A DNA stretch of 62,844 nucleotides, counting the filler, from Squatina squatina (lineage: Eukaryota): NCBI GenBank assembly GCA_031763465.1. It is 4 parts of 3 records of this genome, joined end to end, with 100 filler letters (N's around TTAATTAATTAA, not from the genome) between each part and the next. Parts side by side here need not be neighbours in the genome. Positions count along the whole stretch, not along the records: positions 35,384 to 47,992 come from JARFOE010000234.1; 3 more parts are not named here. One strand, 5' to 3'. Under the pieces are notes generated by a model. The model was not told where the DNA came from. It was given only the letters and a program-made list of their open reading frames with translations, and did not search any database. Both the position numbers and the translations under genes were made by a program. Positions 1,408 to 58,823 of this stretch are shown here, one piece after another; position 1 is the stretch's first letter; each line of letters opens with the position of its first letter.

Positions 1408-1544
1408 TCTGTCGCCAGTCTGAATGCACGTCATATACCTAGAACTTTAAATACTGTTCCGACATCTGCCTTAAAGCTGGCTACAGCAGCAAATTGTCAG
1501 GTGCCCAAGGTTCCAGGCTCCACCTCCATGGATGGAGTACCAAG
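1408..1544 (+). CDS. EPC1: Enhancer of polycomb homolog 1, 3' part of penultimate coding exon
   Basis: Encodes SVASLNARHIPRTLNTVPTSALKLATAANCQVPKVPGSTSMDGVP(R), matching the recalled EPC1 C-terminal region (NARHIPRTL..VP.SALKLA.AANCQV.KVP). Ends at donor AAG|GTAAGC, phase 2. The 5' part is replaced by satellite. Confidence 0.93.
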
Positions 1545-3259: not shown

Positions 3260-6100
3260 CTTCTGAAAATCTTAAAAATGATCATAATTCTTTAATGGTT
3301 TGAATTTTTATATAAAGGGGTACTGATGATGACTCACTCTTTAAACATCACACCTGCAGGAAGTGTCTCTCCATAAACACGTCACTGGCCCTGCAATTCA
3401 TAGCGCCATAGAGACGTGATGTTGCCACCCAGATGGTGAAATAGGAGTCATAAAAGGAGACTTTACTACAGCACATCGGGAAACTTTAAGGGTAGGAGCA
3501 GGAGGTTGGGAGGCAAGTAAAGTGCTTTTGTTTTTTTAACTGCTGCTGTCTCTCTGGAGTGACCTCTCTGATTCTCTCTCCCCTTTACCTTGGACATCTT
3601 GTGCCATTTTGTGTAGGCATGCAGNNNNNNNNNNNNNNNNNNNNNNNNNNNAAATTTATGTGGCTCTTTTGGCATTTTGAAGACCATGATTCAGTAAGAC
3701 CTGTGAGTTCTACTTTGATATTTTTAAATAATACATTAAACAGTGAAGGAACAGTTTTTATCCATGGCTAATCTTTTTTGTGGTTTTAACTTAATTAAAC
3801 CATTCATGTTCATAGCTCTTGGTAGAAGATTGTGTAGCTGATATTAAAATGATGTTTTAGTCTTTTATATTGCTTCAGGCACAGAACAGAGTAGTTCTTG
3901 AATGTGATGTAAGTATTAACTAAAAATCTAGTTAATGTGTATAACCTGTTAGCAAGAAATTTATTGGAGGACTGCTTCATTTTTTTTTTTTACTAAGTAT
4001 CTGCTTTGTGCTTCAATAGAACAGCAAAATCATGGAAATTTCTCCAGGGAGTGCTAAGCAAGAATAACTTAACTGTGTGCCCTCCCTGGGTATGTTTTGC
4101 TGGCATTTCCTCATTTTAACAATGAATGGAACAGATGTGTACTATAGCTATATAATGTAATAAACATGTGCGCAAGTGAAGTGGAAATTCTGAGTAAGCA
4201 GACTGGCTTAAAAATGTACATTGTTTGAAATAACAATTGTTGATCTGCGCATGCAAATCAGTAAACCATCCTCTAATTTTATTGGGGTGGGTGTTATGCA
4301 ATAACATGGTCTTCTGGAATTTATTTGATCATCTTCCGGGGGCGGTGGTGGAGAGGAATTTCCCAGAGTTTTTCCTAAATTGGCCTAAGGTTTATTTTCT
4401 CTTTTTGCCTGTCTCAGGACATTGCAAGGTTGCCTAGATAGGTGAGTGAATGGGTGGTGGTGTGAAGACGTTACACCATGTCAATATAGAAGAGGCTCAA
4501 TGCATCAACTGATTCTTCACCTGTCCTCTTTTGGACTGTCATGAGTTTTTACACCTTTTGCAGTTGCCATATAGATCCCATGATAATTCCTTATCTGATG
4601 CTAGATTTAAGGTTTCAATCTTGAATTGCAACACAATTCTTTTTCTCATTAGTGGCAGTTACTGAGATTGTAAACTTGACATTTATTGGTCAATTCTTCA
4701 GCTTAAGCTGTAAATCTAGGACTAGTCTATTTAATTTTACTTGAGTTTGGCATTATGTAGGTTTTGGAAGATTTTTGATAAATATATGGTGAAAACGTGC
4801 ATCATTGCTTTAANNNNNNNNNNNNNNNNNNNNNNNNNNNNNNNNNCTCCTGCTCCTATTTTCTATGTTTCTATGAAATGATTCTTGAAAGGATTGACTG
4901 CTGGTTCCTCTACTGGTAATTTGCTGGGTCCAGTTTACATTCAAAAATCCAAGCTTTCATGTTGGCCATTAATCAAGTGCAGGGTATCATCATTGATCTT
5001 TGGACCATGCTATAACAAAAACACTACGCATGCTTCATGTTGTTTAGGAGAGAACATCATCTGTGGCACAGGATAATAGTCTAAATTTTTGAGGAGTGCC
5101 CTTTTTGTGAAGATCCTCTTGAAAATATTGAATTGCGGTGGAGAATTTCCCAACACATATTGCCATAATGGTTACAAATGGTTATTTAGTTCAACTGTAG
5201 GAGAAATGGGCATCGCACCATGCCATTCTCTATAAATATTAGACGTTTCCACTTCAACATCATTCTCCGTTGACTCAAGTGGACTGAGCAAGCAAACTAT
5301 GATCACCCATCCCAGGCAAAAGCCCCGTCTGTATTCACTACAAAGGAATGGTGTATGCCATGAATGCCTTCTAAATAGGGATAACAGATTATTGAAGCCA
5401 TTGGATCAAATTCATCAAGTAAAGATAGTGCAGAACATTTTGTAGATAGCAGTGCTTTTATATTAATTCACAGTAAGTGACCTCAATTCCTTAGTTTTTT
5501 ATAGATCAGGTTGAAAACCTCATCTGAGGTTATTACTTTAAATTGCATTTCATTTCTCTGAGATTACGGAGTCTGTTTCACTAATCTAGCCATCCTTTAG
5601 AGAGCAATATAATTTGTCTGAAGAACTTTGGCATCCTATACCAATGCAACCAAGTCAGTTTACTAGTCCTTGCTGATGTTCGGCACATTTGGTAACAAAT
5701 TACTGGGCAATCCATTATTAAGACAAATGGCTTGTTACTCAGAAAAAAATACACAGAAACCACGAGGCAGTGACTGAAATAAATTGTGGATCTGACAGGT
5801 TAGCTGCATATATAGCAAGCAAAATGTCTGGCCAGATTGGAGTCAGTGGAAATGAGTGCTCGTGTCAAAATCTTGTGCAGGTTACATACACAAAACACAG
5901 AATGGGGACAATGGGAGACTGAAACTTTTTTTCAATTGAACAATTGGTAGAGATCACAAGTGAGTCATTTCATAAAACCTAGCTAAATTTGGGTTACTGC
6001 AAAGGTCAATTTGACCCATTGCTATTGTTGTGTGTTTTGATGTAAATATGAAAAATGATCACAGAGCAGTGACTAACAGTGTATCTCTCTCTTTCTCCAG

Positions 6101-6173
6101 GGAAAACCATGACACAGAAAAGCCAGCACTAAACAGTATAGCAGACAATACAGTGGCAATGGAAGTAACGTAG
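6101..6173 (+). CDS. EPC1: EPC1 canonical last coding exon: (R)ENHDTEKPALNSIADNTVAMEVT*
   Basis: Strong acceptor ctctctctttctccag. Conserved EPC C-terminus ...VAMEVT*, with EPC1-type KPALN. Phase matches the 1544 donor. Confidence 0.96.
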
Positions 6174-13264: not shown

Positions 13265-13364
13265 NNNNNNNNNNNNNNNNNNNNNNNNNNNNNNNNNNNN
13301 NNNNNNNNTTAATTAATTAANNNNNNNNNNNNNNNNNNNNNNNNNNNNNNNNNNNNNNNNNNNN
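13265..13364. other. Artificial scaffold spacer (44N-TTAATTAATTAA-44N)
   Basis: Palindromic all-frame stop linker at 13309-13320. Confidence 0.97.
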
Positions 13365-19700: not shown

Positions 19701-19964
19701 TGAATAACGTGAAATCTCTGCCCACAATATGGGCCAACCTCGAATCATTTGGAAACTTGGTCCCTCTGGGATCTTAGACACAAATCACTGAAAGTAGCAA
19801 CGTGAGTCAATAAGGCCTTAATAAAGCAAACCAAGCCTTGGGGTTCATTTCTAAAGGTGTGGAATTGAAAAGCAGAGAAGTTATGTTGAATTGTAGCGAA
19901 CCTTGGTTAGAGCGTGGTTAAGATGAAGGTTTCCAGTTCTGGTCTCAATATTCTGGTCCTCATA

Positions 19965-20345
19965 GGTCCCGCGCTGCCGCTTCGACAATCATCCAGATAG
20001 CGCTGGCCAGAGGCTGGAGCCGGCCCCTCATCCCTGACCCCAAGCCCCCGGATAAAACGGCCAATCAGCCGCCCCGTGACGTCAGCCCGCATTGTGGCAT
20101 CGCCCGCCGCCCTACCCCGCCCCGCCTGGCTGCCATCTTGGTGTGACCGAGCTCACTGCGCATGCACGGCCATTCACTGCCCGAAGAACCGCGCGATTCA
20201 AAGAAAAAGCGACTTCAGTTTGCAGCAAAATCGCCGCTCGCTCTTGACGGAGAGACTGAGAGTTTGTCCCGCGCAGGAGGGACAAAGCGGCGACTGACCG
20301 GTCGGGTGAGGTGCGCATGTGTGAACTTTGTTCCAAGAGTCACGC
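19965..20345. promoter_or_regulatory. CpG-island promoter, probably bidirectional
   Basis: Sharp CpG enrichment. CCAAT (20061), full CRE TGACGTCA (~20077), GC boxes, YY1-type GCCATCTT (~20132), NRF1-like TGCGCATG (~20157 and ~20313), possible donor CGG|GTGAGG (~20305). Confidence 0.75.
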
Positions 20346-20440
20346 CCCTGTGTCACCCATAGGGGCCTTTCACCGCGCGCTGCATTGTGGGAGCTCAGAC
20401 CCGCCATGATCCAGCTCAAAATTCCCGATGCCCCAATCTC

Positions 20441-20513
20441 ATCTCTCTCCAGCATTGACACAAAAAAAAAATCTCTCTCCAGCATTGACACAAAAAAAAA
20501 TCTCTCTCCAGCA
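20441..20513. repeat. 30-bp tandem duplication (ATCTCTCTCCAGCATTGACACAAAAAAAAA) x2.4
   Basis: Direct reading. Confidence 0.9.
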
Positions 20514-21403
20514 GTCGGAGTGTGGGAGCTCGTGAGTTGGAGGGCGGTGACTTGTGGAAATTGCAGCCTCCATTACAGCTGCTACTTTCAGCCCAAGCTG
20601 TGCCGCAGTTGAGGAGGGAAGGAGAGCAGCAACCGCCAGAGAGGAGACAGCAACCGCGAGAAAGGAGATCTCTGCTTATGCTCAAGGAAAAAGGAGGAGG
20701 AGAAGATAACTTTTTTGGAAGCTCCAGAACAGCAGCAGACAGCCAAAAACACCGGAGCTGAAGTCTGCATCGGTGGAGCAGCTGAGGCGAGTGCAGCTAA
20801 TTGCGTGGGTTCCAACTGAGAGGAGGAGACGCCAGCTGCAGTAAAGCAGACTGCTTTTGACAAGAAGCAAAATTCTGCAACAAGAAGGCGCATGCAGAGG
20901 AGCGGCATTTGAGAGTGAGAGGGAACTGTGACAAGGAGAGGGGAGAAGGAGGGGAAAATAAAAACCAACAAACATTTTCCACAAAAGGGAGAGAGGAGAA
21001 GTCAACCACCCGATATTACCACCAGGAAGGAGGGAGAGCCAGGAAGAACACAGTCTACAGGTGGGTATAAGTGCATTCTCCATTAAGTGACTTTGTAATT
21101 GTAGTTGGGGGGAGGGGAAAGAAGGCGAGGAACATCGACGGGGGCGGGGGGCGAGGTAATTGCAACACCCCCTCCCCATTGCCTGGCCCAGGACAGCTGG
21201 AGCTGCCTGGGTGAAGACCCCCATTTAATTACTTGGACTTTCTTTTGGAGGAGAACCTGTGCCCACGCAGTTCCAACTGTCCTGGGGGAAGACATCATCT
21301 CCCCCCACCCGAAGATCACCGGGGAAAATATCAGAGGAGAGTGCACCCCAGCACACCCACCCAACGGTGCAAGGGAAGACCCACCCCTGCAGCCTCCCTC
21401 CTT

Positions 21404-21406
<3 letters not shown>

Positions 21407-21434
<28 letters not shown>
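21407..21434. repeat. (CT)n microsatellite
   Basis: Direct reading. Confidence 0.95.
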
Positions 21435-21437
<3 letters not shown>

Positions 21438-21499
21438 CTGCCTTCTCTGCGGGCACTTCCAAAATTTATGTGAAAAACCAAGGCCAATTACGACCAAAC

Positions 21500-23085
21500 G
21501 GCCTGTGACATTGGAGTGGGTATAGCTCTAAAGAGGGTATTGCCCCAAGCCCAGCGACATGTCGGCTCCGTCGTCACCAGTGGCAGGGCAGGCGAGGTCA
21601 TACGCGGACGTGGCAGCTACAGCTACGGCCACAGCTACGCCCGCTGCTCCTGCCCTGTCGCCATTCAGACTCCTGACAGAGAAGCATGGGATGAAGAGCT
21701 ATGCTCACTGCAACATGACCATCGAGATGTGTGCTTAGGCAATTGCCGAGGTTGTCGGCCCCTCGGCCATCATCGCCGCATCAAAGATGTATGGGAATGC
21801 TGTGTTCTTCCGGCGCTCGGAGCGGGCGGTGGCCCTGGCTATCAATACGGGGCTCACGCTGGGCGGGACTTTCCTGGCGTCGACACTCTGGAGGCCGTCG
21901 CACAGAGAATTATTATATCCAACGTCCGGCCCTTCATTAACGCGGAGCTCCTCCTCCCCCGCCTGAGTCAGCTGGGGGAGGTGAGGTCGGGGATCACTCC
22001 CGTCCTGCTCTGGTGCAGGGAGAGCAGCCTGCGACATGTCTTGTCCTTCCGGCGCCAGCTCTTCGTGCGGATGGCACGGGCAGAAGACACAGGGGCCTTC
22101 ACGGTTTTCTAAGGAGGGGACCACTTACCACGTCTTTTGGTCCTCGGACGGGGGGGCGGTGCGACGCCTGTAAGGAGGTGGGGCATGTTGGCAAAAACAG
22201 CCCCACCTCCAAGGCCGCCAGCACAGCCAGGGCGGCCGAGGTTGGCACCGCAGCCATTCCTCCCCCAGATCCTACACGAATGACATCCGGTGCGCGGGCG
22301 ATGCCGGAGACAAGTGCCATCACTGCCTCCGCCAGGGGGAGTGGACACCGTCTGGGGGGAAGGAACGCGCTGTCCAGAGCAGACACCTACGTGAGGGGAG
22401 TCCCATCCGAGTCCTATCGGATATTGACGTGCTCGTCACCTCAATCTGTCAGGAAGCCGCGCCGAGCGTTCCCATGACCGCACCCATACGGCAGCCAAAG
22501 AAAAATCCACGGCCGGTCTCGGGCCCGGAGACAACGGGAAGCAGGGACCGGAAGGAGGGTCCTCTGCCGAAACGGAGGTCATGCTGCCTCCGGGGTTGTC
22601 CGGTGAAAAGCGGAGGTGCCGCTCTGCATGGTCGCAGGAGGATCTTCACGAGTCAGGTCCCTCCGGTCTGGAGGAGTCGGTGCACGGTGCGAGTCCCGCG
22701 GCCACACTTACCGTCTCAAAGACACGCCGTCGGGGGCCCCTCGTCATTCGGGAGGGCGGGCCGGAGTCACTCGTCGGACAGGTGCCTCCCGGGGACGGGA
22801 AGTAAATCCTGCCTGGGGCGGGGGCCATAGGACTGGGAGAGCAGAAAGAGTCAATGCAATTCGTCAGTGGGTCGAGCAACGTGGAGGCTGAGACGGGCGA
22901 GGCAGACGGGGCTAACCCTGCCCAGCTGCATTTGGAGATCGCCCATGCATTGCTCGACCTGGGGATGAAAGGGTTAATGAGACGCCACCCGCTGGTTCAG
23001 AAGGTGGTGGCGATGGGGAATGCCCTGCGTCTCCGTCCCCACCATCGGTGATGGCTGTGCAGGGGGAGTGCAACATCTTCGTGTG
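21500..23085 (+). mobile_element. Tx1-clade (L1 group) non-LTR retrotransposon ORF1, decayed
   Basis: Joined frames give AEVVGPSAIIAASKMYGNAVFF...RIIISNVRPFI...LRHVLSFRRQLFV...CDACKEVGHVGKNS, i.e. Tx1 ORF1 motifs plus a degenerate CCHC knuckle. Contains a stop at 22110 and frameshifts. Confidence 0.88.
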
Positions 23086-23086
23086 G

Positions 23087-23440
23087 AAACATAGAAAATA
23101 GGTGCAGGAGTAGGCCATTAGGCCCTTCGAGCCTGCACCGCCATTCAATATGATCATGGCTGNNNNNNNNNNNNNNNNNNNNNNNNNNNNNNNNNNNNNN
23201 NNNNNNNNNNNNNNNNNNNNNNNNNNNNNNNNNNNNNNNNNNNNNNNNNNNNNNNNNNNNNNAGACCTTGTGCATATTTAAGTCCGAGATAGATAGATTT
23301 CTAATCAGGAAGGGAATCAAGGGTTATGGGGAGAAGGCGAGAAGGTGGACTTGTGAAATATCAGATCAGCCAATTGAATGGCGGAGCGGGCTCGACAGGC
23401 CGAATAGCCTACTCCTGTTCCTACTTCTTATGGTCTTATG
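23087..23440. mobile_element. CR1 (shark HER1-like) LINE 3' tails: minus copy 23087-23162 and plus copy 23265-23440, either side of a gap
   Basis: TGAATGGCGG..GGCTCGA..GGCC.AAT.GCCTACTCCTG stem region and TTCTATG-type tail. Confidence 0.88.
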
Positions 23441-37398: not shown

Positions 37399-38230
37399 GG
37401 GTAGAGTTTTCGCCCAACATTGGCGTAACCTGCACAAACGATCACGGAATTTTAAGCATAAATTACATTCAGTGCAAATCGAGTTTCTTTTGTGCTAGTT
37501 TAAAAAACATGAGCTGAAAGGTGGCCCCGCCCACAAAACTGGCCACGCTCCCAGGGTGAAATAATCACCATTGGGAGTGATGTTGAGTGATTGTGTTTGT
37601 TTGCAGACCTTCGAGGAGACTCTAAAAACGAAACTTGTTCTGTTGGGTGCGATTTAAAAGCTTTTGAATGTAATTGTTTTTCAATTTACTAAGAAACTGA
37701 CTACTGTACCCCAATATAATCATGAAATGGTTCTGTATANNNNNNNNNNNNNNNNNNNNNNNNNNNNNNNNNNNNNNNNNNNNNNNNNNNNNNNNNNNNN
37801 NNNNNNNNNNNNNNNNNNNNNNNNNNNNNNNNNNNNNNNCCTTGATCTATTTAAGAGTGGTAAACTGGTGCAGTTTGGTTAATACAGCTGAAAATGGGTT
37901 TATCACAAAAAATAAGCAATTTCTAGTGCACCTGAGTAACCCGATTTTGAATAATTGAAAATGACTTTAAAAAAAATAAACAGAGCTACTTGCTCGTTAT
38001 ATTGGGGTACAGTGGTCAGTTTCTTAGTAAATTAAAAAAAATTATATTCAAAATCTTGTAAAAGATGCCTATCAGTGTTCTTGCACCCAAAAGAACCAGC
38101 TCAATTTTAGAAACTCAACCTGAGCAGAATGTAATGTGTGCTTAAAATTCTGCGATCTTTTGCGCTGGTTTGACTGATTTAGGTGAATTGCGTGGAATAA
38201 AGCAGCGCAACCAAGCGTAAACTCTACCCC
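37399..38230. mobile_element. Foldback/MITE-like element with long imperfect inverted arms
   Basis: Termini GGGTAGAGTTT...AAACTCTACCCC. 37677-37720 is the near reverse complement of 37997-38040. The centre is a gap. Confidence 0.75.
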
Positions 38231-39886
38231 AGTATCAAATTAATTTAGCAGCAGCACAGATACCAATAACAGTTAGCTCTGCTGATCATTTTTGAAATGA
38301 GTTGCGCTACTAAATTTGATGATGCTGGCCCTGAATTTGCTCAAGGAATGAGATGGACTGCAGGCCTAATTGGGACAGGCTTGCAACCTCGGAGAGGTGG
38401 AAAATTGGGAGGGAGCCTGTATTGCCGGGTCTTCACGCCAAAGAAATGAACACCAGGATATCCTGCGGGGGTGGGCAGCAGTTGCGCCAGCCCCCTTGCA
38501 GCCTGACATAGTAAAAGGGGGCAGGACTGGCAGGATGCCACCAGCCTGGTACCGGAGTTCCTGAGAGTCTTATTTCCTGTGCTCTGAATGTGCTGTACTT
38601 CGGCAAGGTGCACGTTTGCAGCACCTGCCGTGGTTAGATGTCGACCTCACAGGTCAGGTTCATACCCTCGCAGACCGAAGTAACACTTGAGGCACTGGGG
38701 TCAATTCCAACATTTTTACAAATTGTCCAGACTGATCAGTTAGCTTTGCAGGTGCCATATTTCATAGAATGATAGAAACTTACCGCACACAAGGAGGCCA
38801 TTTGGCCTGTCCTGCCTGTNNNNNNNNNNNNNNNNNNNNNNNNNNNNNNNNNNNNNNNNNNNNNNNNNNNNNNNNNNNNNNNNNNNNNNNNNNNNNNNNN
38901 NNNNNNNNNNNNNNNNNNNTATGTACTTTGCTATGGAAGGGCAGTAATAATTGCTACAAATCTAGCATGGTTTACAAATACATATGGAAATGTTATACAG
39001 TAATTGACTGACTTTTGTTAAATGAATGTTTGACTTGTTACCACAGTAAATCTTGATGACAAGGAAAATTATTTCATTTTAATAAAAAAAAAATTACAAG
39101 AAGAAACAGAACTGGAAGTCGCAAATATGTCTAGATAATGGCAATCGAACATCACCCGAGAAGACTATTCCATAAAAACAGGGACAGCAAAAACACTGCA
39201 GATCTGTGAAATCTGAGCAATAATGCTAATATCCAAGACAGGGCAGCAGGTGGCATACTCCATCAGTAGAGCTGGTGTCAGTTGAGAGCAGAGGTACTCG
39301 AATAAATAAATCCAATATTCTGACAAACCACCATTACATTTTTTTTAAACAATTCTTTACTTAATTTCTTGTTGTACTCTTCCTAATCAAATTTTCCATA
39401 AAACTCAGTGGTTCAGAACTGCTGTGGCCAGATGAGCAAGGCAAAGTAGTTTGCGCAAGGCAGTAGGCAACAGTCAAATTTTGGAGGTGCATGCACACAC
39501 CAGCATCTCATAAATCATGAGACAAATTCTTAAAAATCATGAGATTTGGTAAGGAATCATGAGTTGCTATTTTTTTTAAAAACATAGACCAATATAGATT
39601 GACAGTTCAGTTAGAAACCTTATTAGTGTCTTTATTTAATCTTTGGGTGAAACTTTAATTGCATTATTTTGAATTTAATCACGCAATGCTAAAAAAATGT
39701 GGCAAATGTTAGATATATATTAGGTTAACTTGCAAGCTTTATTACATGGCCGGAGTGTGAGCAAAGACACTTCAAATTTCAGGAGCAGAAAGCCTTCCTG
39801 CATTTTGCGCACCAAGATGGTGGAGGGCTTGCCATCAAATTTTAATGATTCAACTCCAGCTGGGATGAAAAAATGTAAAACATTTC

Positions 39887-40238
39887 GGGGCCCCAATTCA
39901 TCTGGGCTTATGCCCGAGTAGCGCCAATTTGCGGCGCTACCTGGGTGTAAAATCAGCATAGAGGCCTAAATTTATAAAATGATTTATTGGGCCCGACGCC
40001 CGACAGCATATAGGCCCTGCTGTCGGACGCACAGTCATAATGTCGCGCGCCAACCCCTCGGCGCCCGCCCACAACCCCCGTGCGCTGCCTCTGGATTTGG
40101 AGGTGGCCTCCCCCACGACGCCACTGGCGCTGGCAACGACAGGTTTCCAGTCATTGCCAGGGGCCCTTAAAGGCGAATGGCATGCACCATCGGTCACCAT
40201 CTTTAAACATTGGCCGACGTTATTGTTGGCCTATGTGT
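39887..40238 (+). mobile_element. GC-rich interspersed repeat, same family as 12270-12606
   Basis: Collinear homology, same GGGGCCCCAATT terminus. Confidence 0.7.
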
Positions 40239-41813
40239 NNNNNNNNNNNNNNNNNNNNNNNNNNNNNNNNNNNNNNNNNNNNNNNNNNNNNNNNNNNNNN
40301 NNNNNNNNNNNNNNNNNNNNNNNNNNNNNNNNNNNNNNCAATACTGGCGCTGTAACTGATCCTGAAAATGAATGCAAGAGCAGTTCAGGCTGATTCCAAC
40401 TTTTCCTCCTTTAGGGAAGCGACTGCCCTCTACTTGGAAAATTGGCATTGCCAATTCACATGTGAAGAACCACATATGAGCTTATTAGAAACTATAAGCA
40501 TAGATTTCCTTACCGTGGAGACACACAAGACAGTAAATAGTTCATGAGAGCTCCTTTAATGAAACTATGTTAACCAGATTTTGTTTCAAGGCCGTCAACT
40601 AATAACAAACCACCAAGAATTACTACAGCATTCGCACTGTGTGCTTTAACCTTTTCAATTCCACACTGATCGATAAGGTAAATTCACCGATCCTGCACTC
40701 CCAGCAGGAGACCATGCTCAAAAGGAGGGTGGGTCAAAAACGGGTGGTTTTGAGTCGGCTGAGATGCCAACATTATTTAAATCTCAAACTTCATCCCAAC
40801 CCGCCTCCAACCACCCACTTCTGGGACTAACGGAGGTGGACCAAGGGGCGGGAACTTCCATGCCAGAAGTTCCAACATTCCCAACCTCAGTGGGACCATG
40901 CATAAAGTTGATGCTTGGTACAGCCCGTGAGATGAGGCAATTTGGCTCAAGCAAGCCTGTCGTTTTTATAGTGCAAGTAGGAGCCATGTGCCAGTCCAGT
41001 CGAGGGAAGTGGCCTGGACCCCTAAAGGATTTCTGCCCTTTACTGAGGGGGCCAAAGGGGCAGAAACATAGTTTCACCAAGGGTACCTGGGTTGCAGGTG
41101 CCAGGTTTGTCTGCCATGTCGGGCGAGATGCACCCCAGAGTGGTGCAGGCACCCACTGGGCCCATGCAAATGAAGTGCCCTCCTACTACAGTGGGGCACT
41201 GTTGGAGGACACCAGCAGGCACATTCCCAGCAACACAGCTGGGATTAAATCCTGTGCAATTTTAGTGCCCATATATTTAACTAGAATATTTGGAATCATT
41301 TTAAAACAATTATTCGTAAAGTTTACCCTAATTCTTACTTGTCAGAACACATACATTCTTTATCCAGCGGATTAGAATTAAGGAAAAAAAGACTTGCATT
41401 TATATAGTGCCTTTCACAACCTCAGGATATTCCAAAGCACTTTACTGCCAATGGAGTAATTTTGAAATGTTTTCACTGTTGTGATGCAGGAAACACGGCA
41501 GCTAATTTGTGCACAGCAAATCCATGAAGATAAGAATTTTTAGGAAGAACAATAAGCAATTAAGCCCAAACAAACCTGTCATTTTCATACAAAAGCAAAA
41601 CACTGTGGATGATGGAAATCTGAAATAAAAACAGAAAATGCTGAAACTCTGACAAAGGGTCATCAACCTGAAGCGTTAACTTTGTTTCTCTCTACACAGA
41701 TGCTGCCTGACCTGCTGAGTATTTCCAGCATTTTCTGTTTTTATAAATAGTTATTGTTAGCTAATGTGAAATTCTGCAGGCCAGTGAAGGTGATTATTTT
41801 CTGCAGATCTTAC

Positions 41814-41936
41814 TTGCGTGACACTTTGAATGAAGATTTCTTTTGGCTCTTCTCCGTTTGGATCAGATACTTCAAAATGGTCTCCAAAGTCGCAGAACAC
41901 ACGGCAGCACACTCCATATACATCAGCACTGATGAA
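41814..41936 (-). CDS. UBA6: UBA6 exon (FISADVYGVCCRVFCDFGDHFEVSDPNGEEPKEIFIQSVTQ)
   Basis: 123-nt phase 0-0 exon, cttctag|...CAA|gtaaga. Matches recalled UBA6 FISADVHG..RLFCDFGDEFEV.D..GEEPKEIFI. Confidence 0.95.
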
Positions 41937-42870
41937 CTAGAAGAGGAAATGCACAAAATTCCCATCCATAAATCTTAGAGGCCCACAGAAGCATTTGAAG
42001 GTCAAAGATAAAAGGAACAAGTTCCTGATTTCCTTCAGACTGTGACCTATTGTGCACATGGACACAGGTTATGGTTCTACATCGCAGTTTGCAATTTTTT
42101 TTGCAGTCAGAGTATTAGTCCTTGGTTCAAGGAACACAAATCAGATTTGTGAGCTTTAACCCAATAAAGCCAGGATCTCCCAATGTCAAATCGAATCTGT
42201 TCCAAGATGAATATGGAAGTCTGGGACAACGCGAGAGGCAAGCACAAACGAAGAACAGAGACAGGGAAGAAAAGAGATACAAGAAAGCTAATTCGAAAGA
42301 AAACTGATTGACGTCAATTTTTTTGAATTATTTGTTCTCAGGATGTGGATGGCACTGGCAAGGTAGGATTTATTGCCCAACTCTAATTGACTTGAGAAGA
42401 TGGTGGTGGGCATTCTCCTTGAACTATTGCAGACCTTGATGTTCAGTAAGCCAGAGATGAAACATAATTGTATGTAAAAGACTACATCAGAAACATTCTA
42501 CAAGTTCAGTCTGACCAGGACCTGCTAAATATTTTGAAGTAAAATTTCTTCAATGCAATTTTATTTTTGGATGATTTTATGGTTTTGGTTGGTTTTCCTC
42601 ACAGGACAGAAAGGTTGCTACATTGTGTTACCGGTTTGTATTTTAATGGCTCTTGTTACATTGCACATTTTGGTGCCGGATCAATATAACCCCATCATAC
42701 ATCACTTCATCAGGATCAGTGCTGCATATCAGATTCTAGACAGGCAAGGTAACGCATTCCACATTGGCCNNNNNNNNNNNNNNNNNNNNNNNNNNNNNNN
42801 NNNNNNNNNNNNNNNNNNNNNNNNNNNNNNNNNNNNNNNNNNNNNNNNNNNNNNNNNNNNNNNNNNNNNT

Positions 42871-43154
42871 AAGGATACGGGGTAAGCCATTTAGGACTGA
42901 GATGAGGAGAAATTTCTTCACCCAGAGAGTGGTGAACCTGTGGAATCCTCTACCACAGAAGGCAGTTGAGGCCAAATCATTAAATATATTCAAGAAGGAG
43001 TTAGATATAGTTCTAATTGCTAAAGGGATCAAGGAATATGGGGAGAAAGCAGGGACAGGGTACTGAATTTGGATGATCAGCCATATTGAATGGCGGAGCG
43101 GGCTCGAAGGGTCGAATGGCCTACTCCTGCTCCTATTTTCTATGTTTCTATGTC
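42871..43154 (+). mobile_element. CR1 (HER1-like) LINE 3' end, young
   Basis: RIRGKPFRTEMRRNFFTQRVVNLWNPLPQKAVEA plus (TTCTATGT)n tail. Further copies at 56405-56577, 57704-57967, 58637-58821 and 4847-4874. Confidence 0.93.
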
Positions 43155-43589
43155 TCATGAGTAACCTTCATAACTTACCAAAATCAATAAATGTTGTTTA
43201 AAAATGAAACAGACATGCACAAATGCCTCTGCCAAATAAATCTGAGATGGAAATGGATTTATGAAGAGATTGCAGAATTGCAACTGCTTTAAACATGAAC
43301 CCTGCATTTGAAGCCAAGAAGATTCCATGCATTAGATGTTTGGTAAACAAGTTATTGTAGTTCTAGGAATGCTGGAATCTGATTTGAAACAGTCACAGAG
43401 GTAAAGTTAATGCATAGGCAGTACATAAAATGGGAGTTACTATTTTGCCCATTTGAAAAAACATCCAAAGCAATGAATAACTTTGCTCTGTATGTTTTCT
43501 GGGAGCTTGGGTACATTAACGTGTGCTGAAAATAACACTCCAATCAGAAGTCACCTTCAAGAGCACTGCTTAAACCACAAATTCCTCCA

Positions 43590-44074
43590 GCTGAAGATTG
43601 GAAAGTCCAAAGGCATCATCTTCAGACCCCCACTACAAACTCTGTTCCCTCGCTGCTGACTCCAATCCCCTCCATGGCCACTGTCTCAGGCTGTACCATA
43701 TTGTTTGCAACCTTAGCATCCTATTTAACCTTGAGCTGAGCTTCCAGCCTTGTATCCTCTTCATCGGGGGAATTACAGAACTTACTTCCACATCTGTAAC
43801 ATTGCTCATCTCCACTCCTACCTCAGCCCAACTGCTACTGAAACCCTCGTCCATCCATGTCTTTGTCACACCCAGACCATACAATTCCAAAACTCTCCTG
43901 GCTGGCCTCCCCATTTGCACCCTCTGTAAACTTCAACTCATCCAAAACTCTGCTTCATTTTTCTAATCCTGCATGAATCCACTCACCCGTCTCCCTGTCC
44001 TCAATGCCTACATTGGCTCTTGGTCAGCCAACACCTCAAATCTAAAATGATCATCCTTGTACTTAAATCCCTTC
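43590..44074 (+). mobile_element. L2 LINE ORF2 C-terminal fragment
   Basis: IHVFVTPRPYNSKTLLAGLP..LCKLQLIQNSA resembles the L2 IHAFVTSRLDY.N.LL.GLP..LQL.QN.A motif. Confidence 0.85.
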
Positions 44075-44594
44075 NNNNNNNNNNNNNNNNNNNNNNNNNN
44101 NNNNNNNNNNNNNNNNNNNNNNNNNNNNNNNNNNNNNNNNNNNNNNNNNNNNNNNNNNNNNNNNNNNNNNNNNNCAGAGAGGTACAGAGTGGGGATCAGA
44201 TACTTCCCAGAAGGAGGGAAAGACTTCAGATATTGAGTCTACCTGGGCCACTGGTACATACCTTTTAGTGCGCGGTTATGGAGAGGTCTTGGAGTAGGAC
44301 GTGTGATGCAGAGTCACCTACAGAAAGGGCAATTGAATTTTAGCTTCAATGAGGGAAGCAAAGCAGTTAAAACAGTAGCCAACTGAACTACAAAAGCCAT
44401 CCAGAAATTGAACCACTTAGTCTAATTACAAGGGAATATGACTGAAAGAATTTTTTATGTCAGTAAGAGTATGAAGGTATTCTATTCATGGGTGCTGACT
44501 GTTACGAAAGAGCAATATTAAGTTCTAATTAAAATGTTTTTTCTCTAATAATTAAGTATTGAAACTAAATGTTATACTTTGCTATTTTTTCTAG

Positions 44595-44872
44595 TATTCT
44601 CTAAAGATGCAGATTCAAGATGTAGTAAGAATTACATTCCCAAAGTGCGAATGAAAACCTTAAAGATGACTATTGTCCTTGTGACCACCTTTATCATTTG
44701 CTGGACCCCGTACTACATCCTGGGATTTTGGTACAATTTTTTCCCTGCCATGATAAACAAGAAGGAACTTCCTGAATCAATCAACCATGCGCTGTTTACT
44801 TTTGGGATGCTGAACAGTTTTGTGGATCCAGTGATTAGCCGTATTGGTTATCTCAGGCTCAGCAATGGCTGA
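44595..44872 (+). CDS. GnRH receptor paralog, last exon (ICL3-TM6-ECL3-TM7), divergent
   Basis: Acceptor ttttttctag, phase 1. Encodes RCSKNYIPKVRMKTLKMT...FIICWTPYY...LPESINHALFTFGMLNSFVDPVISRIGYLRLSNG*. AATAAA at 45041. Confidence 0.92.
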
Positions 44873-46529
44873 TGCAGTGAGCTAAGATTATACTAGGCAC
44901 ATGTAAAGTAAGAAAAAGGCAGTTGTCTAACAATGCCTTGAAATCCTCCTGGTCAATTAATTGTGAACGTTAGCACTTAGAATCGTTATTTACTCCCATT
45001 TTCCCCGAGAATGTTTCCTATCTTCGGTGGGCCGCTAAGCAATAAATGACAAGTTAATAAGCTTGTGATGGTAATGTGCAGCAGCTGAGTGCTGTTGGAA
45101 AAAAGGGTGTTAAATGTCAGTCAACTTGCGTGATCTTCTGGATGATATATTAAAGGTTTCACTTATTAGTCTTTTCCCTTTTCCATAGTGAAACTGGTGA
45201 AGGAGACTCACTGGCCTCTTCAGCTGTCCAGTGAAGATTTGTGTAGCTACTTATTGCTGTGTACTCAGCTAGAAGAAACACTTTTCAGCTCAGGCACCTC
45301 TGGATTAACATCCAAACCAACCCAAAGTGCTTACATGCTCGTTAACACATAGAACTGCTCCAGGATGCACACACTAAATTATTGGAGTGGTCTATTTCTG
45401 GTGGAAATAGACCTTAAACAAGTCTTCATGGGAAGGAAAGTTAATCACTGAATTGAAGGTATCGCCTACTGGGTACGAGATAAGTTTTTTTAACATAATG
45501 CGTGAGAGATAATACTCCTTTTAGGCTTTCATTCTCCTTTTACTCTAGTTAGTGTGGATCAACACAGTCCTGCCACACTTTTAAAGGGTTAATCAAGGAT
45601 TGTATTTTTTGGCTAAAAGTATCAATACCCTCCAGCCTCATTATAACTAAAGCCCATAGGAGCTAAATACTTGTAATATTTATAATGAAATACATGTTCC
45701 ACAACATAAAATGAAACATAAATACATTTGGGTGCCAGTGTTAACAGATGTAGTGTTACAACAACAACAAAAACAACTTGCATTTACATTGCACCTTTAA
45801 TGTAGTAAAATGTTCCAAGTCGCTTCACTGGAGTGTAATCAGACAACATTTAACACTGAGCCGAAGAAGGAGACATTAGGACAGGTGAGTAAAAGCTTGG
45901 TCAAAGAGGTAGTTTTTAAGCAGCACTGGAAAGGAGGAGAGAGGTGACTAGGCAAAGAGATTTGGGAAGGCCTTCAGTTAATCATGGTTGAATTTAAACC
46001 TTTCCTTTCTCACCTGCTAGCTATGCAATTGCACAAAAGTATTGTATTTATTCTTAATTCTTTGAGATCCTTCTGTCAGGGGATTTTGACTCTTATTTTG
46101 CCTGGGAAGGCTCACCCAATAATATGATCATTAGGCCTGTCTGAATGACATTGCTAACTAATACAGGATTACGAACAGCTTTTTGTTAGAAACAGGATTT
46201 AGACTGCCCAAATTCATTTGGATTTGAGCTCCGTTTCCAGATTGGAGAGGGCCATGTCTACTCCACTGTGCCACCTAGTTTCCCCCAGAAAATATACTTC
46301 TAATACTGATTGCCCCATTCTGATGAACACTTTCATCCCTTTTATTTTAAGCTGTAATGATAAGAATGAAACACAATAATTATTTTTATATTATCTGAAG
46401 GATAAAGGAGCTGGAAAAAGCATCATAGTGGTTGGAACCTGGAATAAAGAAGAGCACATCGCATGGGCTGCAAAAAATTCAGCAAGGTCTTATCAATGGA
46501 GAGAAGATGGAACACAGAAAGTGAGGTAA

Positions 46530-46818
46530 ACTTGCAGGATTGTAATATACAATAACTCACTGGTTAGGCCTCAACTGGAGTATTGTGGACAATTCTGGGC
46601 ACCAGATGCAAAGGCTGTAGAAACGGTGCAGAGGAGGTTTACCAGGATGTTACGAGGGATGAGGGACTTCAGCTATGAGGAGAGGTTGGAAAAGTTAGGA
46701 CTCCTTGGAAGAGAGAAGGTTAAGAGGTGACCCAATAGAGGTTTTCAAGACAATGAAAGGTTTTGATGAGAGAAAAATTAGACTCTGGTGATTGGATCAA
46801 TAACCAGAGATCATAGAT
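46530..46818 (+). mobile_element. CR1 LINE RT C-terminal fragment
   Basis: LVRPQLEYCGQFWAP...VQRRFTRM..GMRDFSYEERLEKLGL. Confidence 0.9.
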
Positions 46819-47069
46819 NNNNNNNNNNNNNNNNNNNNNNNNNNNNNNNNNNNNNNNNNNNNNNNNNNNNNNNNNNNNNNNNNNNNNNNNNNNNNNNNNN
46901 NNNNNNNNNNNNNNNNNNATGGTCGGTATGAGTGCCAGGGATTTCACAGCACTTCTGGGGTTCTGTGTCTGAGCTGAGAAATGAAACTGTTAATAGACTA
47001 AGAGCAGCAAAATAGCTGGAGCAGTGAACAATGCATCATTAAAAAACAAGTGTCACAATTAAGAATGCA

Positions 47070-47314
47070 TTAAAGAGAAAAGTACCCATAAATAAGTGGA
47101 TCAAAGCAAGGATTTAGTAACCCAAAGACAAATAAGAAATGATTGATAGGTTCAGGCAACTTATTGTGCAGATCTGGATCAAACCAGTACCAAATTCCCA
47201 TGAGGTAGTATGGAGTCCAGCAGATGATGAAAGAAGTGACAAATGCAATGGTCATTTTTATTGTTTTCATGCGAGCTTGTGGTAAGACATTCCTCGATCG
47301 GTTGAGGTCCATCT
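47070..47314 (-). CDS. GNRHR: Type I (mammalian-type, tail-less) GnRH receptor, last exon
   Basis: 245-nt coding exon after tttattttacag, phase 1. CWTPYY motif; ends NPCFDPLIYGYFSL* as in mammalian GNRHR. Same strand as neighbouring UBA6, as in human. Confidence 0.97.
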
Positions 47315-47992
47315 CTGTAAAATAAATATTTTGACAAATTCAGCACCTCCTGAAGTAACATGGAGGTCAGCAGTGAACACCAAAATGCACAATATGGTAA
47401 ATAAGGCATATAGTGTTGGTGTGGTTCTAAAGTAGCGTTGAAGAAGAACATTGAACAATCCCGAGTGTAAACCAACTGGAAAACCAGCTGTTCGCAATCG
47501 AATATATTTTCTGACATGTACATTCATCTTCCTGGACTGCTCCATTCTTCCTCGACATTGCAGTGGCACTATCCAGCTCCATCCCTACTCCTGCACACAA
47601 AATGCAACACTGTACATGCTGAAAAGAAAATGAGATTGTTTGATGCTGTTGTAGAACTTTCTAGTTTTTGGTCTTTCAGTGCTGGGACCTGGGATTGAAT
47701 CGAGCCCGGACTGATAGAATGAAAGTGCCCTCTTGTCTATAAGGGCACTATGGGAAATGAGTTTGAGCTGTCTCCACCTAGTCAGGATTGGCATTGCACA
47801 TGGGTCAAATTCCTACACCAGAAAGCACTGTGGCTGCAGTGGGAAATAGAATGGTCACACTGGTTTCTGTCTCTCCTCTTTCCCTTCTGTTTCTGTGTTT
47901 TTCTAATCCTTCTTAAATTTTGCTGTTTTTATCTTTCTCACTCCCCACCTCCCCCCCACCCAATTTGTCTCTGTAAAAATGTTTCCCCTATT

Positions 47993-48092
47993 NNNNNNNN
48001 NNNNNNNNNNNNNNNNNNNNNNNNNNNNNNNNNNNNTTAATTAATTAANNNNNNNNNNNNNNNNNNNNNNNNNNNNNNNNNNNNNNNNNNNN
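47993..48092. other. Artificial scaffold spacer (44N-TTAATTAATTAA-44N)
   Basis: Linker at 48037-48048. Confidence 0.97.
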
Positions 48093-55329: not shown

Positions 55330-58300
55330 CTGAAAAAAGAAGCATATAATAGAACATTAGTTTTATTAGACTTTCATGTCTTAGGTCCCAAATATCCCAT
55401 CCATACAGCATTATGGGTTATATTTTCCTATGTTTGAGAAAAATAGGAGAAATGCATGTTATTCATGAAATTAATGATCTGCTAACAAAATCACAGGCAT
55501 ATGTGGTTTAAAGATCTGTGATTCCTCTGAATATATCTCTTTCTAAGTGGAAATGGCTAAAAAAGAAAATCTCAATGCATCTGCAACATCTCTCATGTGT
55601 GACGCAATAACAAATGTCACAAAGGTTTCTTATCCAGCAATGGAGTGCGCACATTGTTTCATGACAGAGATCAAAGCCAAATTTAGTGGACCCAATTTAT
55701 AGAGACCCGCCTCTGGAAGCACTGATCACTCACTGCTGTAGTAGAGTGACATGAGCAGAGTTTGGTACAAAAAGATGGGCCTCCAAGGAGGCAGCTAGAG
55801 TGGTGGGATGTCACAGATTGAGTCAACATGGTCTCAGTAGTGAGAAGTCTGGAATAAGTTCGTAAGTGGCCAATCAAACAATCCAGTCAGGCAAGGCACT
55901 TTGCATTCTTACAGAATGTGAGATGATGTTCTTATTAGGGAAAGCAATCTTCTTTCGCAGTGAAAATAGGATGCAATTTTTGTACAGATTATGAGAGTGC
56001 AAACTTAATTCACCCTGTGCTACACAGCAATACAAACCAAACTGTTAACATATGAAATGTGCTGTGTTTATTTAAGCTCATAAATCCAGTGAAATTTAGG
56101 CACTTGATTCGAAGGCCTGTCTGTCAGTGCACGGCGATCAGCTGAACAATACCACCAACCATTAGATCCGATAGACAACATAGCAGGAGGATGACCATCC
56201 GTGTCAATGGGAAGACAATTATAAGTTGTCTGGGTTTGTCAATTTGACACAATTTCAGCATACAATAGATTTTAAGATACTTTCCATTCACACTATGGTT
56301 CAAAGTATTTGTAATGGCAGGGATTGTGTGACTGTAGAGATGTAGAGACCCTGGAGTATATCATTGAACACTTCCCTCATAGGAAATTTGCAGGCAGCCC
56401 ACAAGATATATTCAAAAGGGAGTTAGATGTGGCCCTTACGGCTAGGGGAATCAGGGGGTATGGAGAGAAAGCAGATACGGGGTACTGAGTTGAAAGATCA
56501 GCCATGATCGTGTTGAATGGCGGTGCAGGCTCGAAGGGCCGAATGGCCTACTCCTGCACCTATTTTCTATGTTTCTAAGATATCCACACTGTTACACTGG
56601 AAACTTCTGGATACCCAACTTAGACACTGACATTTGATTTGCTTTACTACTACTGTATGAAAGAAGAAGAAGAGATGGCAAGGATTTTTCTGATTAAAAG
56701 TAAGCAGTCTGCATCCTGCAACCTGTCTTAATAAATGCAGGAGATAACCAAGGTTGAAAGAGTAAAAGGCGATGTAGATCAGGAAGCAGGTGATGCCAGG
56801 CTAAGGTTTGAAAAGCCTATAGACTATAGGAGGAAGGAAAAACTGAGAACATTCAGATCCTGGGACAAATGGAGTTGGAGTAAGAGATGGTCTGATGATC
56901 CTCCCCAGATTTAACACAAAGAGGAAGGAGGCATTATGCTCATCTTCTCCTTTAAAGTTATGAATATGGAAGAATGGTTTACCACATAACAAGTTGCAAT
57001 GGTAAAATTCTAGGCCATTCATCTTCTATATAATTTACATTGTATACATCAACTGGGAAACCAGCTACCTAAAAATTCTCTCATTACAGAATAAGTTTCC
57101 TTATAAATGAATGGGAGACATTTTTACATGATCCCAGTTCCTTGTGGGTATTGCATGAGCTCTAACTGTGCATCATTAAAGAATAGCCGTGACACTTTGA
57201 TTGTTGTCAAATGTTACATTCATCCTCGCGGAAATCAACAGGGGTGAAATCTTTCCTTGGCGGCAGCACAAAATAGGCGTCAGAAACAGCAGCCTGTTGT
57301 ACACAATGTACAGGAAAATCGGGTGGCGTTTAAAACTGGATATCGATTGATTCGCTGTCACCCGTTTTGTGATATTGCCAGCGTTGAACCTCACCCCAAT
57401 ATGTCTTCATTCACACAATGTTCAAAACAATTGAGGTAGAAAAGCAGATAGGTTTAGGGAGAGGATTCCAGAGCTTAAGTCGAGGTGGCAGAAGGCACGG
57501 CCACTGATGGTGGTACAATGAAAATCGGGGATGTGCAAAAGACCAGGAGGAGAGTAGAGATCCAGGATGGTTGTAGGGCGTGAGGAGGTTAGAGATAGGG
57601 AAGNNNNNNNNNNNNNNNNNNNNNNNNNNNNNNNNNNNNNNNNNNNNNNNNNNNNNNNNNNNNNNNNNNNNNNNNNNNNNNNNNNNNNNNNNNNNNNNNN
57701 NNNTAGAACTAGGTCATTCAGGTGTGAAACGAGGAAGCAATTTTTCACCCAAAGGGTTGTGGAACGGTGGAACTCCCTCCCCCTGGGGATGCTGGGTCAA
57801 TTGTGATTTTCAAAACCGAGATCGCTAGATTTTTTGTTAGGTAAGGGTATTCAAGGTATATGGAGCAAAGATGGCTAAATGGAGTTGAGGTACAGATTAG
57901 CCATGATCTAATTGAATGGCAGAACATGATCCAGTGGCTGAATAGCCTATTCCTATATTCCTATGTTCGATTCCTATATCATAAATATTCCTCTTTTTTA
58001 ATTAACTATTAAATAACCTTTTAAAAATAGCATTGTGAGACAGGTGAGAAAATGCTTTTCAGGAAGCAGTTTCCATGGGTGTCTCAATCCTTGCTGCATC
58101 TATGTCAAAAGGCAAAACTTGCATTCATCTGACCAGGACCCTACCAGGAGGAGGCCACCATAGATCTTTTCAGAAGGTTGGCGGAAAGTGCAGAATTGAT
58201 GGAACCTGTTGTGTTATTCAAATACTCTGATTTGCACTATATGCTATCTGAACTTTTCCACACACACAGTGATTATGCACAAGCTCATAATGGAGCAATT

Positions 58301-58823
58301 AATGTCAGTACCCAAATGGATAAGTGTGCTTATTTTCTCATAATGTACCATCTGCTCCTATGACAGAGCAAGCAGAACAGTTGCCCACTAGAATCTAAAG
58401 ACTAACATTCACCAGAACACCCCTCGTCAGCACCACATTTATGTTAAGCTCCAGCACAGATACAGACACTTTGCAAGAACTAGATAACGATATAGCTGTG
58501 GAATTACAGGATGGGCACGGAACACTTCTGATGAGGAGGTAGCACCGATGCTGGTCCATATATGGTCAACTGATGAGTTCTATGAGGAGAAAGAACTGAG
58601 CAGGCCTATTTTTGAACTGAGGCTGGTACAGCAGAGGCATAAATATATTCAAGAAGGTGTTAGATATAGTTCTTATGGCTAAAGAGATCAATGGATATGG
58701 GGAGAAAGCAGGAACAGGGTACTGAATTTGGATGATCAGCCATGATCATATTGAATGGCGGAGCAGGCTCGAAGGGCCGAATGGCCTACTCCTGTTCCTA
58801 TTTTCTATTTTTCTATGTTTCCA

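What the first reader, a model, noticed from the sequence alone, without database searches (positions are those of the whole stretch)
41814..47314. Two convergent GnRH-receptor genes at the UBA6 locus
Seen: UBA6 exons (-), then a GnRHR last exon (+, 44595-44872), then a tail-less type I GNRHR last exon (-, 47070-47314). Known: human has UBA6 and GNRHR adjacent on the same strand with no coding paralog between, and cartilaginous fishes retain extra GnRHR subtypes. Inference: this is an old local inverted duplication, with the second receptor lost in mammals. The two exons are well diverged, so it is not an allelic duplicate. Caveat: 100-N gaps separate the contigs, so true spacing and orientation depend on the scaffolding.
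Basis: partly seen in the sequence, partly recalled or inferred. Interest (0 to 1): 0.72.

Follow-up and report, generated by a model that had tools for sequence, protein, structure and literature searches.

The report
Ancient paired shark GnRH receptor genes
This shark DNA holds the last exon of the mammalian-type receptor for the reproductive hormone GnRH facing the last exon of a second, nearly tail-less GnRH receptor found in sharks, coelacanth and sturgeons; the pair is likely a very old duplicate whose linkage one paper predicted and another denied.

Summary
Both exons are real, with canonical splice acceptors. The - exon (47070-47314) is the tail-less type I GnRH receptor. The + exon (44595-44872) belongs to a clade of chondrichthyan, coelacanth and sturgeon receptors that I identify as the described subtype 2a/IIa-1; the gene is already annotated in public shark genomes. 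The 12.6-kb record has 8 gaps of 100 N that hide many exons, so the 2.2-kb spacing is a minimum. No contig from 8 runs of relatives bridged the gap between the exons. Linkage is still well supported: the two genes share a record length in 16 of 17 species, with identifiers within 2 of each other in 8. Sefideh 2014 predicted this 1a-2a pair; Williams 2014 called them not syntenic. The best trees join 2a to type IIa, not to its neighbour, which fits a pre-genome-doubling pair, but AU tests do not reject a type I sister (p 0.15-0.17). I did not find two features in accessible papers: the clade lacks Tyr7.53 (24 of 24) and has a 10-residue tail (19 of 19 chondrichthyan rows), yet is more conserved than type I. 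The scan noted this pair before in elephant shark DNA (e1-9150366).

The parts
44595..44872 (+). Last coding exon (ICL3, TM6, ECL3, TM7, 10-residue tail, stop) of the GnRH receptor subtype 2a / IIa-1
   Evidence: 98% identical to the Pristiophorus japonicus orthologue over this exon
47070..47314 (-). Last coding exon of the tail-less type I (1a) GnRH receptor
   Evidence: 96% identical to the Pristiophorus japonicus type I exon
41814..41936 (-). UBA6 internal exon (human residues 183-223)
36373..36501 (-). UBA6 internal exon (SCCH domain)
   Evidence: PF10585 E 8.6e-7
35635..35763 (-). UBA6 internal exon near the C-terminal part
46819..46918 (.). 100-N gap of unknown size between the two receptor 3' ends; its left edge (about 46550-46818) is a high-copy repeat
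   Evidence: not bridged by any listed contig
44075..44174 (.). 100-N gap; together with the gap at 42770-42869 it would have to hide the 5' part of UBA6 and exons 1-2 of the 2a receptor (inferred)
   Evidence: in 3 runs a contig extends 244-248 bases left of 44175 with no listed match to the left contig
35384..47992 (.). The scaffold record that holds UBA6 and both receptor exons, bounded by concatenation linkers

Best explanation
The + exon ends a type II-like, nearly tail-less GnRH receptor gene (most likely subtype 2a/IIa-1) and the - exon ends the type I receptor gene; the two are likely neighbours across sharks, rays and chimaera, and likely the surviving copy of a receptor pair that arose by local duplication before the vertebrate genome doublings. 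Shown: exon identity and clade membership, loss of Tyr7.53, short tail, strong conservation. Inferred from database proxies: adjacency in other species (about 0.93). Inferred from the scaffold: tail-to-tail orientation (about 0.8). Inferred from trees and published models: pre-doubling origin (about 0.6). Predicted function (about 0.5, untested): the 2a receptor binds GnRH through a conserved pocket and signals through G protein with weaker coupling than other GnRHRs and, with almost no tail, desensitises slowly like type I. Tetrapods appear to have kept type I and lost 2a; sturgeons kept 2a.
For: Clade A (chondrichthyans, Latimeria NP_001273666, paddlefish, sturgeon) has support 100/100 and holds the + exon; the - exon falls in type I, 100/100. 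The coelacanth member carries the ICL3 and ECL3 motifs that Sefideh gives for 2a. Same longest-record length for both genes in 16 of 17 species with data, including Latimeria; identifiers within 2 in 8 of 17 (e.g. scyTo_0016114/0016115 on a 119,214-base scaffold; GCC22883/GCC22884; XP_067838438/9). Control: the third shark receptor (type IIa) has a different record length in 9 of 9 of these species. The three UBA6 exons on three contigs are in correct order and strand (1 in 24 by chance, my arithmetic). Best trees join A to IIa: SH-aLRT 86, 86/84, 89/80. A has Asp2.50, Tyr5.58 and the longer ICL3/ECL3 of IIa and is 58.5% (median) identical to IIa against 45.5% to type I. Pocket residues K3.32, Y6.51, Y6.52, F7.39, Y6.58 and the DRY motif are kept in 24 of 24 (roles from PMC12207466 and PMC5662886). 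A is more conserved than type I in 6 of 6 species pairs; 7 of 9 listed differences to relatives in the exon are synonymous (truncated list).
Against: AU tests do not reject A+type I (p 0.147; p 0.17) or A+IIb (p 0.169); exons 2 and 3 alone carry no signal; no column at 85% consensus supports any of the three groupings. No lamprey or amphioxus sequence was in the trees. Record length and identifier order give neither strand nor distance. Leucoraja is the exception (113.5 Mb vs 90 kb records). No contig bridged 46819-46918 in 8 runs. The human Tyr7.53Ala mutant does not signal and Tyr7.53Cys couples less well (PMC5662886), and Asn5.39 is Phe in 24 of 24, so ordinary signalling is not assured. 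Identity with Sefideh's 2a rests on motifs, not on a matched accession.
Confidence: 0.6

Rival explanations
1. One reading: the + gene is an inverted local duplicate of the type I gene, made in the jawed-vertebrate stem after the genome doublings; its short tail is shared by descent with type I.
For: Adjacency; both have very short tails and a Gly-Tyr pair near the C-terminus; A+I is not rejected (p-AU 0.147 and 0.17); exon 2 alone slightly prefers it (delta lnL 0.38, not significant).
Against: Never the best full-length tree; A has the type II state at 10 of 10 type I-diagnostic columns (these may be ancestral states) and IIa-like loop lengths.
Confidence: 0.22
2. Same origin as the best explanation, but the 2a protein is an atypical receptor: it binds GnRH but does not activate G protein, acting as a scavenger, decoy or modulator of its type I neighbour.
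For: Tyr7.53 replaced by Ser/Cys/Asn in 24 of 24 against Tyr in 209 of 210 other GnRHRs; human Y323A is uncoupled; pocket conserved and protein strongly constrained.
Against: DRY, Tyr5.58, Asp2.50, Asp7.49-Pro7.50 and Trp6.48 are all kept in 24 of 24; an invariant Tyr four residues after 7.53 lies on the continued TM7 helix in the model (H315-343, low confidence at the end) and might compensate; scavengers usually need a tail for internalisation (recalled).
Confidence: 0.2
3. The juxtaposition in this window is a scaffolding artefact.
For: Every join is a 100-N gap of unknown size; most exons are missing; no bridging contig.
Against: Same record in 16 of 17 species and consecutive gene identifiers in independent assemblies; UBA6 exons correctly ordered across gaps.
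Confidence: 0.05

Closest known systems
GnRHR 1a-2a pair of Sefideh et al. 2014 (PMC3912137; parts 1-3 of 6 of the text read)
   Same: They proposed 1a and 2a as one of three type 1/type 2 pairs from a pre-2R local duplication, and noted that the coelacanth 2a scaffold has neighbours of the human chromosome 4 region that holds 1a.
   Different: They had 2a only in coelacanth, on a different scaffold from 1a, and invoked a translocation of 1a. Here both genes lie on one scaffold, and 2a is found in chondrichthyans and sturgeons too. The parts I read do not mention a short tail or loss of Tyr7.53.
Type IIa-1 GnRH receptor of Williams et al. 2014 (PMC4232701; sections 10, 11, passages, supplement 1 read, supplements searched)
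   Same: Equated with Sefideh's 2a; reported in coelacanth and as fragments in chimaera and skate, along with type I.
   Different: [quoted passage not shown] Their IIa-1 also includes lamprey receptors, which I did not test.
Mammalian type I GNRHR (PDB 7BR3, 9U4W)
   Same: The - exon is its orthologue and ends at the same residue.
   Different: The + gene resembles it only in having almost no tail; it has Asp2.50 and Tyr5.58 where type I has Asn.
Tailed type II GnRHR (Xenopus, PDB 9U4Y)
   Same: Best sequence and fold match of the 2a receptor (54% identity, TM-score 0.92 by target).
   Different: Type IIa tails are 35-102 residues and keep Tyr7.53 in 116 of 117; the chondrichthyan 2a tail is 10 residues with no Tyr7.53.

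Membership tests
Type I (1a) GnRHR: - exon | No C-terminal tail, ending 4-5 residues after Tyr7.53 | tested here: met
   5 residues after 7.53; 4-5 in 43 of 43 type I rows
Type I (1a) GnRHR: - exon | Groups with mammalian, coelacanth and chimaera type I | tested here: met
   100/100
Type I (1a) GnRHR: - exon | Asn2.50 and Asn5.58 | not testable with these tools
   exons 1-2 are absent from the window; present in 43 of 43 orthologues
Type I (1a) GnRHR: + gene | Asn2.50 and Asn5.58; membership of the type I clade | tested here: not met
   orthologues have Asp2.50 and Tyr5.58 in 24 of 24; separate clade
GnRHR 2a / IIa-1: + exon | Orthology to the coelacanth 2a receptor | tested here: met
   100/100 with Latimeria NP_001273666; that this protein is Sefideh's 2a is inferred from motifs, not from a matched accession
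GnRHR 2a / IIa-1: + exon | Longer ICL3 with an SKExxLR(r/c)S-like motif; P(e/p)S in ECL3 | tested here: met
   degenerate ICL3 motif and PES present; 5.58-6.48 span 52-54 vs 50 in most type I
GnRHR 2a / IIa-1: + exon | Grouping with lamprey receptors (Williams's IIa-1) | not tested
   no lamprey sequence was among the fetched hits
Type II GnRHR as defined by a tail (PMC5662886: all tailed receptors are type 2) | Long cytoplasmic C-terminal tail | tested here: not met
   10 residues in 19 of 19 chondrichthyan rows; 16, 17, 17, 23 and 94 in 5 bony-fish rows
Vertebrate GnRHR / class A GPCR | (N/D)PxxY motif with Tyr7.53 | tested here: not met
   Ser 15, Cys 8, Asn 1 of 24; the window exon has Ser
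Vertebrate GnRHR / class A GPCR | Seven-helix fold and GnRH pocket residues | tested here: met
   on the sawshark orthologue P0228: model pLDDT 73, top matches 9U4Y and 9U4W; pocket residues kept except position 5.39
Vertebrate GnRHR / class A GPCR | Activation by GnRH | not testable with these tools
   needs a cell assay
Pre-2R type 1/type 2 doublet | Linked partners closer to unlinked paralogues than to each other | tested here: inconclusive
   best trees A+IIa; alternatives not rejected, p-AU 0.147-0.17

The most novel reading that the evidence does not exclude
Jawed vertebrates began with two nearly tail-less GnRH receptors side by side, and the 2a receptor, which lost Tyr7.53 in the common ancestor of sharks, coelacanth and sturgeons yet is more conserved than type I, is an atypical GnRH receptor that binds the hormone without ordinary G-protein activation and tunes its neighbour.
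Probability: 0.2. Interest if true: 0.8.

Novelty: new member of a known kind. Interest (0 to 1): 0.5.

Why it matters
It bears on a published disagreement about how the vertebrate GnRH receptor family arose: the 1a-2a linkage predicted in PMC3912137 and denied in PMC4232701 appears to hold across chondrichthyans and, at chromosome level, in coelacanth. It also breaks the rule that tail-less receptors are type 1 and tailed ones type 2 (PMC5662886). A second near tail-less receptor that naturally lacks Tyr7.53 gives a direct test of why the tail was lost, which PMC8741216 leaves open, and of how a class A receptor works without that tyrosine.

Tried and rejected
No whole genome is held for this window, so the missing exons could not be sought elsewhere in the assembly. 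tblastn with full-length orthologues found no exon 1 or 2 of either receptor in the window. Run search: no RNA holder listed; best DNA holders share 0.11 of words, i.e. relatives at about 92%. Contigs of 8 of the 24 listed runs were laid; none of the listed pieces bridges 46819-46918 (tables truncated). Allelic duplicate rejected: 56% identity and separate clades. Pseudogene rejected as unlikely: open frame, canonical acceptor, 98% identity to a sawshark orthologue. Ancient gene conversion between the neighbours: exon-wise topology tests were uninformative. No shark UBA6 record was recovered, so the UBA6-2a-I order could not be checked in other species. The mixture-model careful tree did not finish; the quick tree is cited. 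Pfam scan of 68 of 1134 open frames of 30+ codons found no further neighbour in the record. Rows left out: partial, truncated or duplicated models P0009, P0045, P0046, P0173, P0234, P0236, P0237, P0240, P0257 and most short unnamed fragments; group labels were mine, from names and trees. Literature: 10 searches found no paper showing the 1a-2a linkage or the 2a tail and Tyr7.53 features. Roch et al. 2014 (GCE 209:118) is not held, and I recall it and later catshark and salmon GnRHR papers treating chondrichthyan receptors and synteny, so prior description is not excluded. Figures and Sefideh's Figure S1 were not seen.
Full report
Observation. Both receptor exons are at the stated coordinates. 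The + exon starts after a pyrimidine-rich AG at 44594 and runs to a stop at 44872; the - exon starts after an AG at 47316-47315 and runs to a stop at 47070. Both hit Pfam 7tm_1 above its cut-off and GnRH receptor structures best. They are 56% identical. The exon at 41814-41936 (-) is UBA6, and two more UBA6 exons lie at 36373-36501 and 35635-35763. The closest relatives of both receptor exons are from Pristiophorus (98%, 96%) and Heptranchias (95%, 94%), so the source is probably a squalomorph shark.

Assembly. The window is four records joined by N-flanked stop linkers; the locus lies in 35384-47992, nine contigs of 0.5-2.6 kb and eight 100-N gaps. Only three UBA6 exons were found, and exons 1-2 of both receptors are absent. 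About 190 UBA6 codons are missing across one gap, so gap sizes are unknown and the 2.2 kb between the stop codons is a minimum. The scaffolding looks sound: the three UBA6 exons, on three contigs, are in the right order and strand (1 in 24 by chance, my arithmetic). Contigs from 8 runs of relatives cover both exons but none of the listed pieces crosses the gap between them, whose left edge is a high-copy repeat.

What the genes are. The - exon is type I (100/100). The + exon falls in a clade, here A, of sharks, rays, chimaera, coelacanth, paddlefish and sturgeons (100/100), annotated in public genomes mostly as GnRH II receptor-like. Its coelacanth member has the ICL3 and ECL3 motifs that Sefideh et al. 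give for subtype 2a (PMC3912137), which Williams et al. equate with IIa-1 and report as fragments in chimaera and skate (PMC4232701). The match to 2a is by motif, not accession. No tetrapod, lungfish, gar, bowfin or teleost member was among the 120 of 1102 hits listed.

Linkage elsewhere. The exception is Leucoraja, where type I is on a 90-kb record and the A model lacks its last exon, which would fit a split assembly. As control, the shark type IIa receptor has another record length in 9 of 9 of these species. These proxies give no strand or distance.

Origin. Sefideh et al. proposed three type 1/type 2 pairs (1a-2a, 1b-2b, 1c-2c) from a local duplication before the two genome doublings but had 1a and 2a on separate scaffolds. 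[quoted passage not shown] The data here favour the first on linkage. On descent, all full-length trees join A to IIa (SH-aLRT 86; 86/84; 89/80). A has the type II state at 10 of 10 type I-diagnostic columns and is 58.5% identical to IIa against 45.5% to type I, and it shares IIa's longer loops. Against this, A+I is not rejected (p-AU 0.147; 0.17), no consensus column supports any of the three groupings, type I is a long branch, and no cyclostome was included. I put a pre-doubling pair at about 0.6 and a later duplicate of type I at about 0.2.

The 2a protein. Across 24 A, 43 type I, 117 IIa and 50 IIb rows: position 7.53 is Ser, Cys or Asn in 24 of 24 A rows and Tyr in 209 of 210 others; position 5.39 is Phe in 24 of 24 and Asn in 209 of 210 others (one gap). 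The tail after 7.53 is 10 residues in 19 of 19 chondrichthyan rows and 16-23 in 4 of 5 bony-fish rows (94 in one Huso model), against 4-5 in type I and 35-102 in IIa. K3.32, Y6.51, Y6.52, F7.39 and Y6.58, which papers tie to GnRH binding or activation (PMC12207466 passages; PMC5662886 passages), are kept in 24 of 24, as are DRY, Asp2.50, Tyr5.58 and Asp7.49-Pro7.50. A ligand role for Asn5.39 is recalled, not read. A is more conserved than type I in 6 of 6 species pairs (e.g. 84.5% vs 77.9% chimaera-Heptranchias). A model of the sawshark orthologue gives seven helices with TM7 running straight almost to the end, no helix 8, at low confidence there, and matches the Xenopus and pig GnRHR structures first.

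How it likely works. Shown: conserved pocket, lost Tyr7.53, very short tail, strong constraint. Inferred: it binds GnRH. Predicted: it signals with weakened coupling (human Y323C couples less, Y323A not at all) and desensitises slowly, since the missing tail explains this in type I. The rival, a non-signalling modulator, gets 0.2, because the rest of the activation machinery is intact and an invariant Tyr one helical turn after 7.53 could compensate. Expression was not testable: no RNA holder was listed.

Novelty. Ten searches of the held library found no paper showing the 1a-2a linkage or the short tail and missing Tyr7.53. Roch et al. 2014 was not held, and subscription papers on chondrichthyan GnRHRs may cover these points. 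Other papers seen as passages only: PMC5207463, PMC6135963, PMC12515627. Verdict: real, new member of a known kind, useful for a published dispute and for a clear pharmacology test; interest 0.5.

Noticed in passing
window 13265-13364, 35284-35383, 47993-48092: N44 + 12-base six-frame-stop linker + N44: the window is four separate records joined together, so features outside 35384-47992 are not neighbours of the receptors.
   Followed up: yes
window about 6015-6173 (+): Last exon of an Enhancer of Polycomb (EPC) gene, PF06752 E 1.2e-12, in another record.
   Followed up: partly
window 35035-35283 (+): Cysteine-rich exon-like frame resembling the repeats of GCC2/GCC3-type proteins (resemblance recalled); no Pfam hit at E 0.01; in another record.
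   Followed up: partly
window 58133-58360 and 58399-58539 (+): Open frames that read like exons of an unidentified gene; no Pfam hit.
   Followed up: partly
window 1-1500 and about 19900-23100: A tandem repeat array open in several frames at the start, and a GC-rich stretch with broken frames including a CCHC-like motif at 21941-22474, probably a decayed retroelement.
   Followed up: no
proteins P0039, P0040, P0186, P0187, P0169: Tail-less type I GnRHRs in frogs (Spea, Pelobates, Engystomops), a caecilian (Rhinatrema) and lungfish; the two 2014 papers read list type I outside mammals only for coelacanth, chimaera and skate.
   Followed up: partly
proteins P0044, P0239, P0241, P0242: Paddlefish and sturgeons keep the 2a receptor, although PMC3912137 inferred its loss in early ray-finned fishes; no sturgeon type I was among the 67 hits.
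   Followed up: partly
protein P0008 (Amblyraja radiata, XP_032874732.1): The skate 2a orthologue is annotated as 5-hydroxytryptamine receptor 7-like and fused to an endonuclease-domain N-terminus, probably a gene-model error.
   Followed up: partly
window 44873-45795: The flank 3' of the + exon aligns at about 92% with single contigs of relatives in 4 of 4 runs and has a polyadenylation hexamer at 45041; possible 3' UTR.
   Followed up: no
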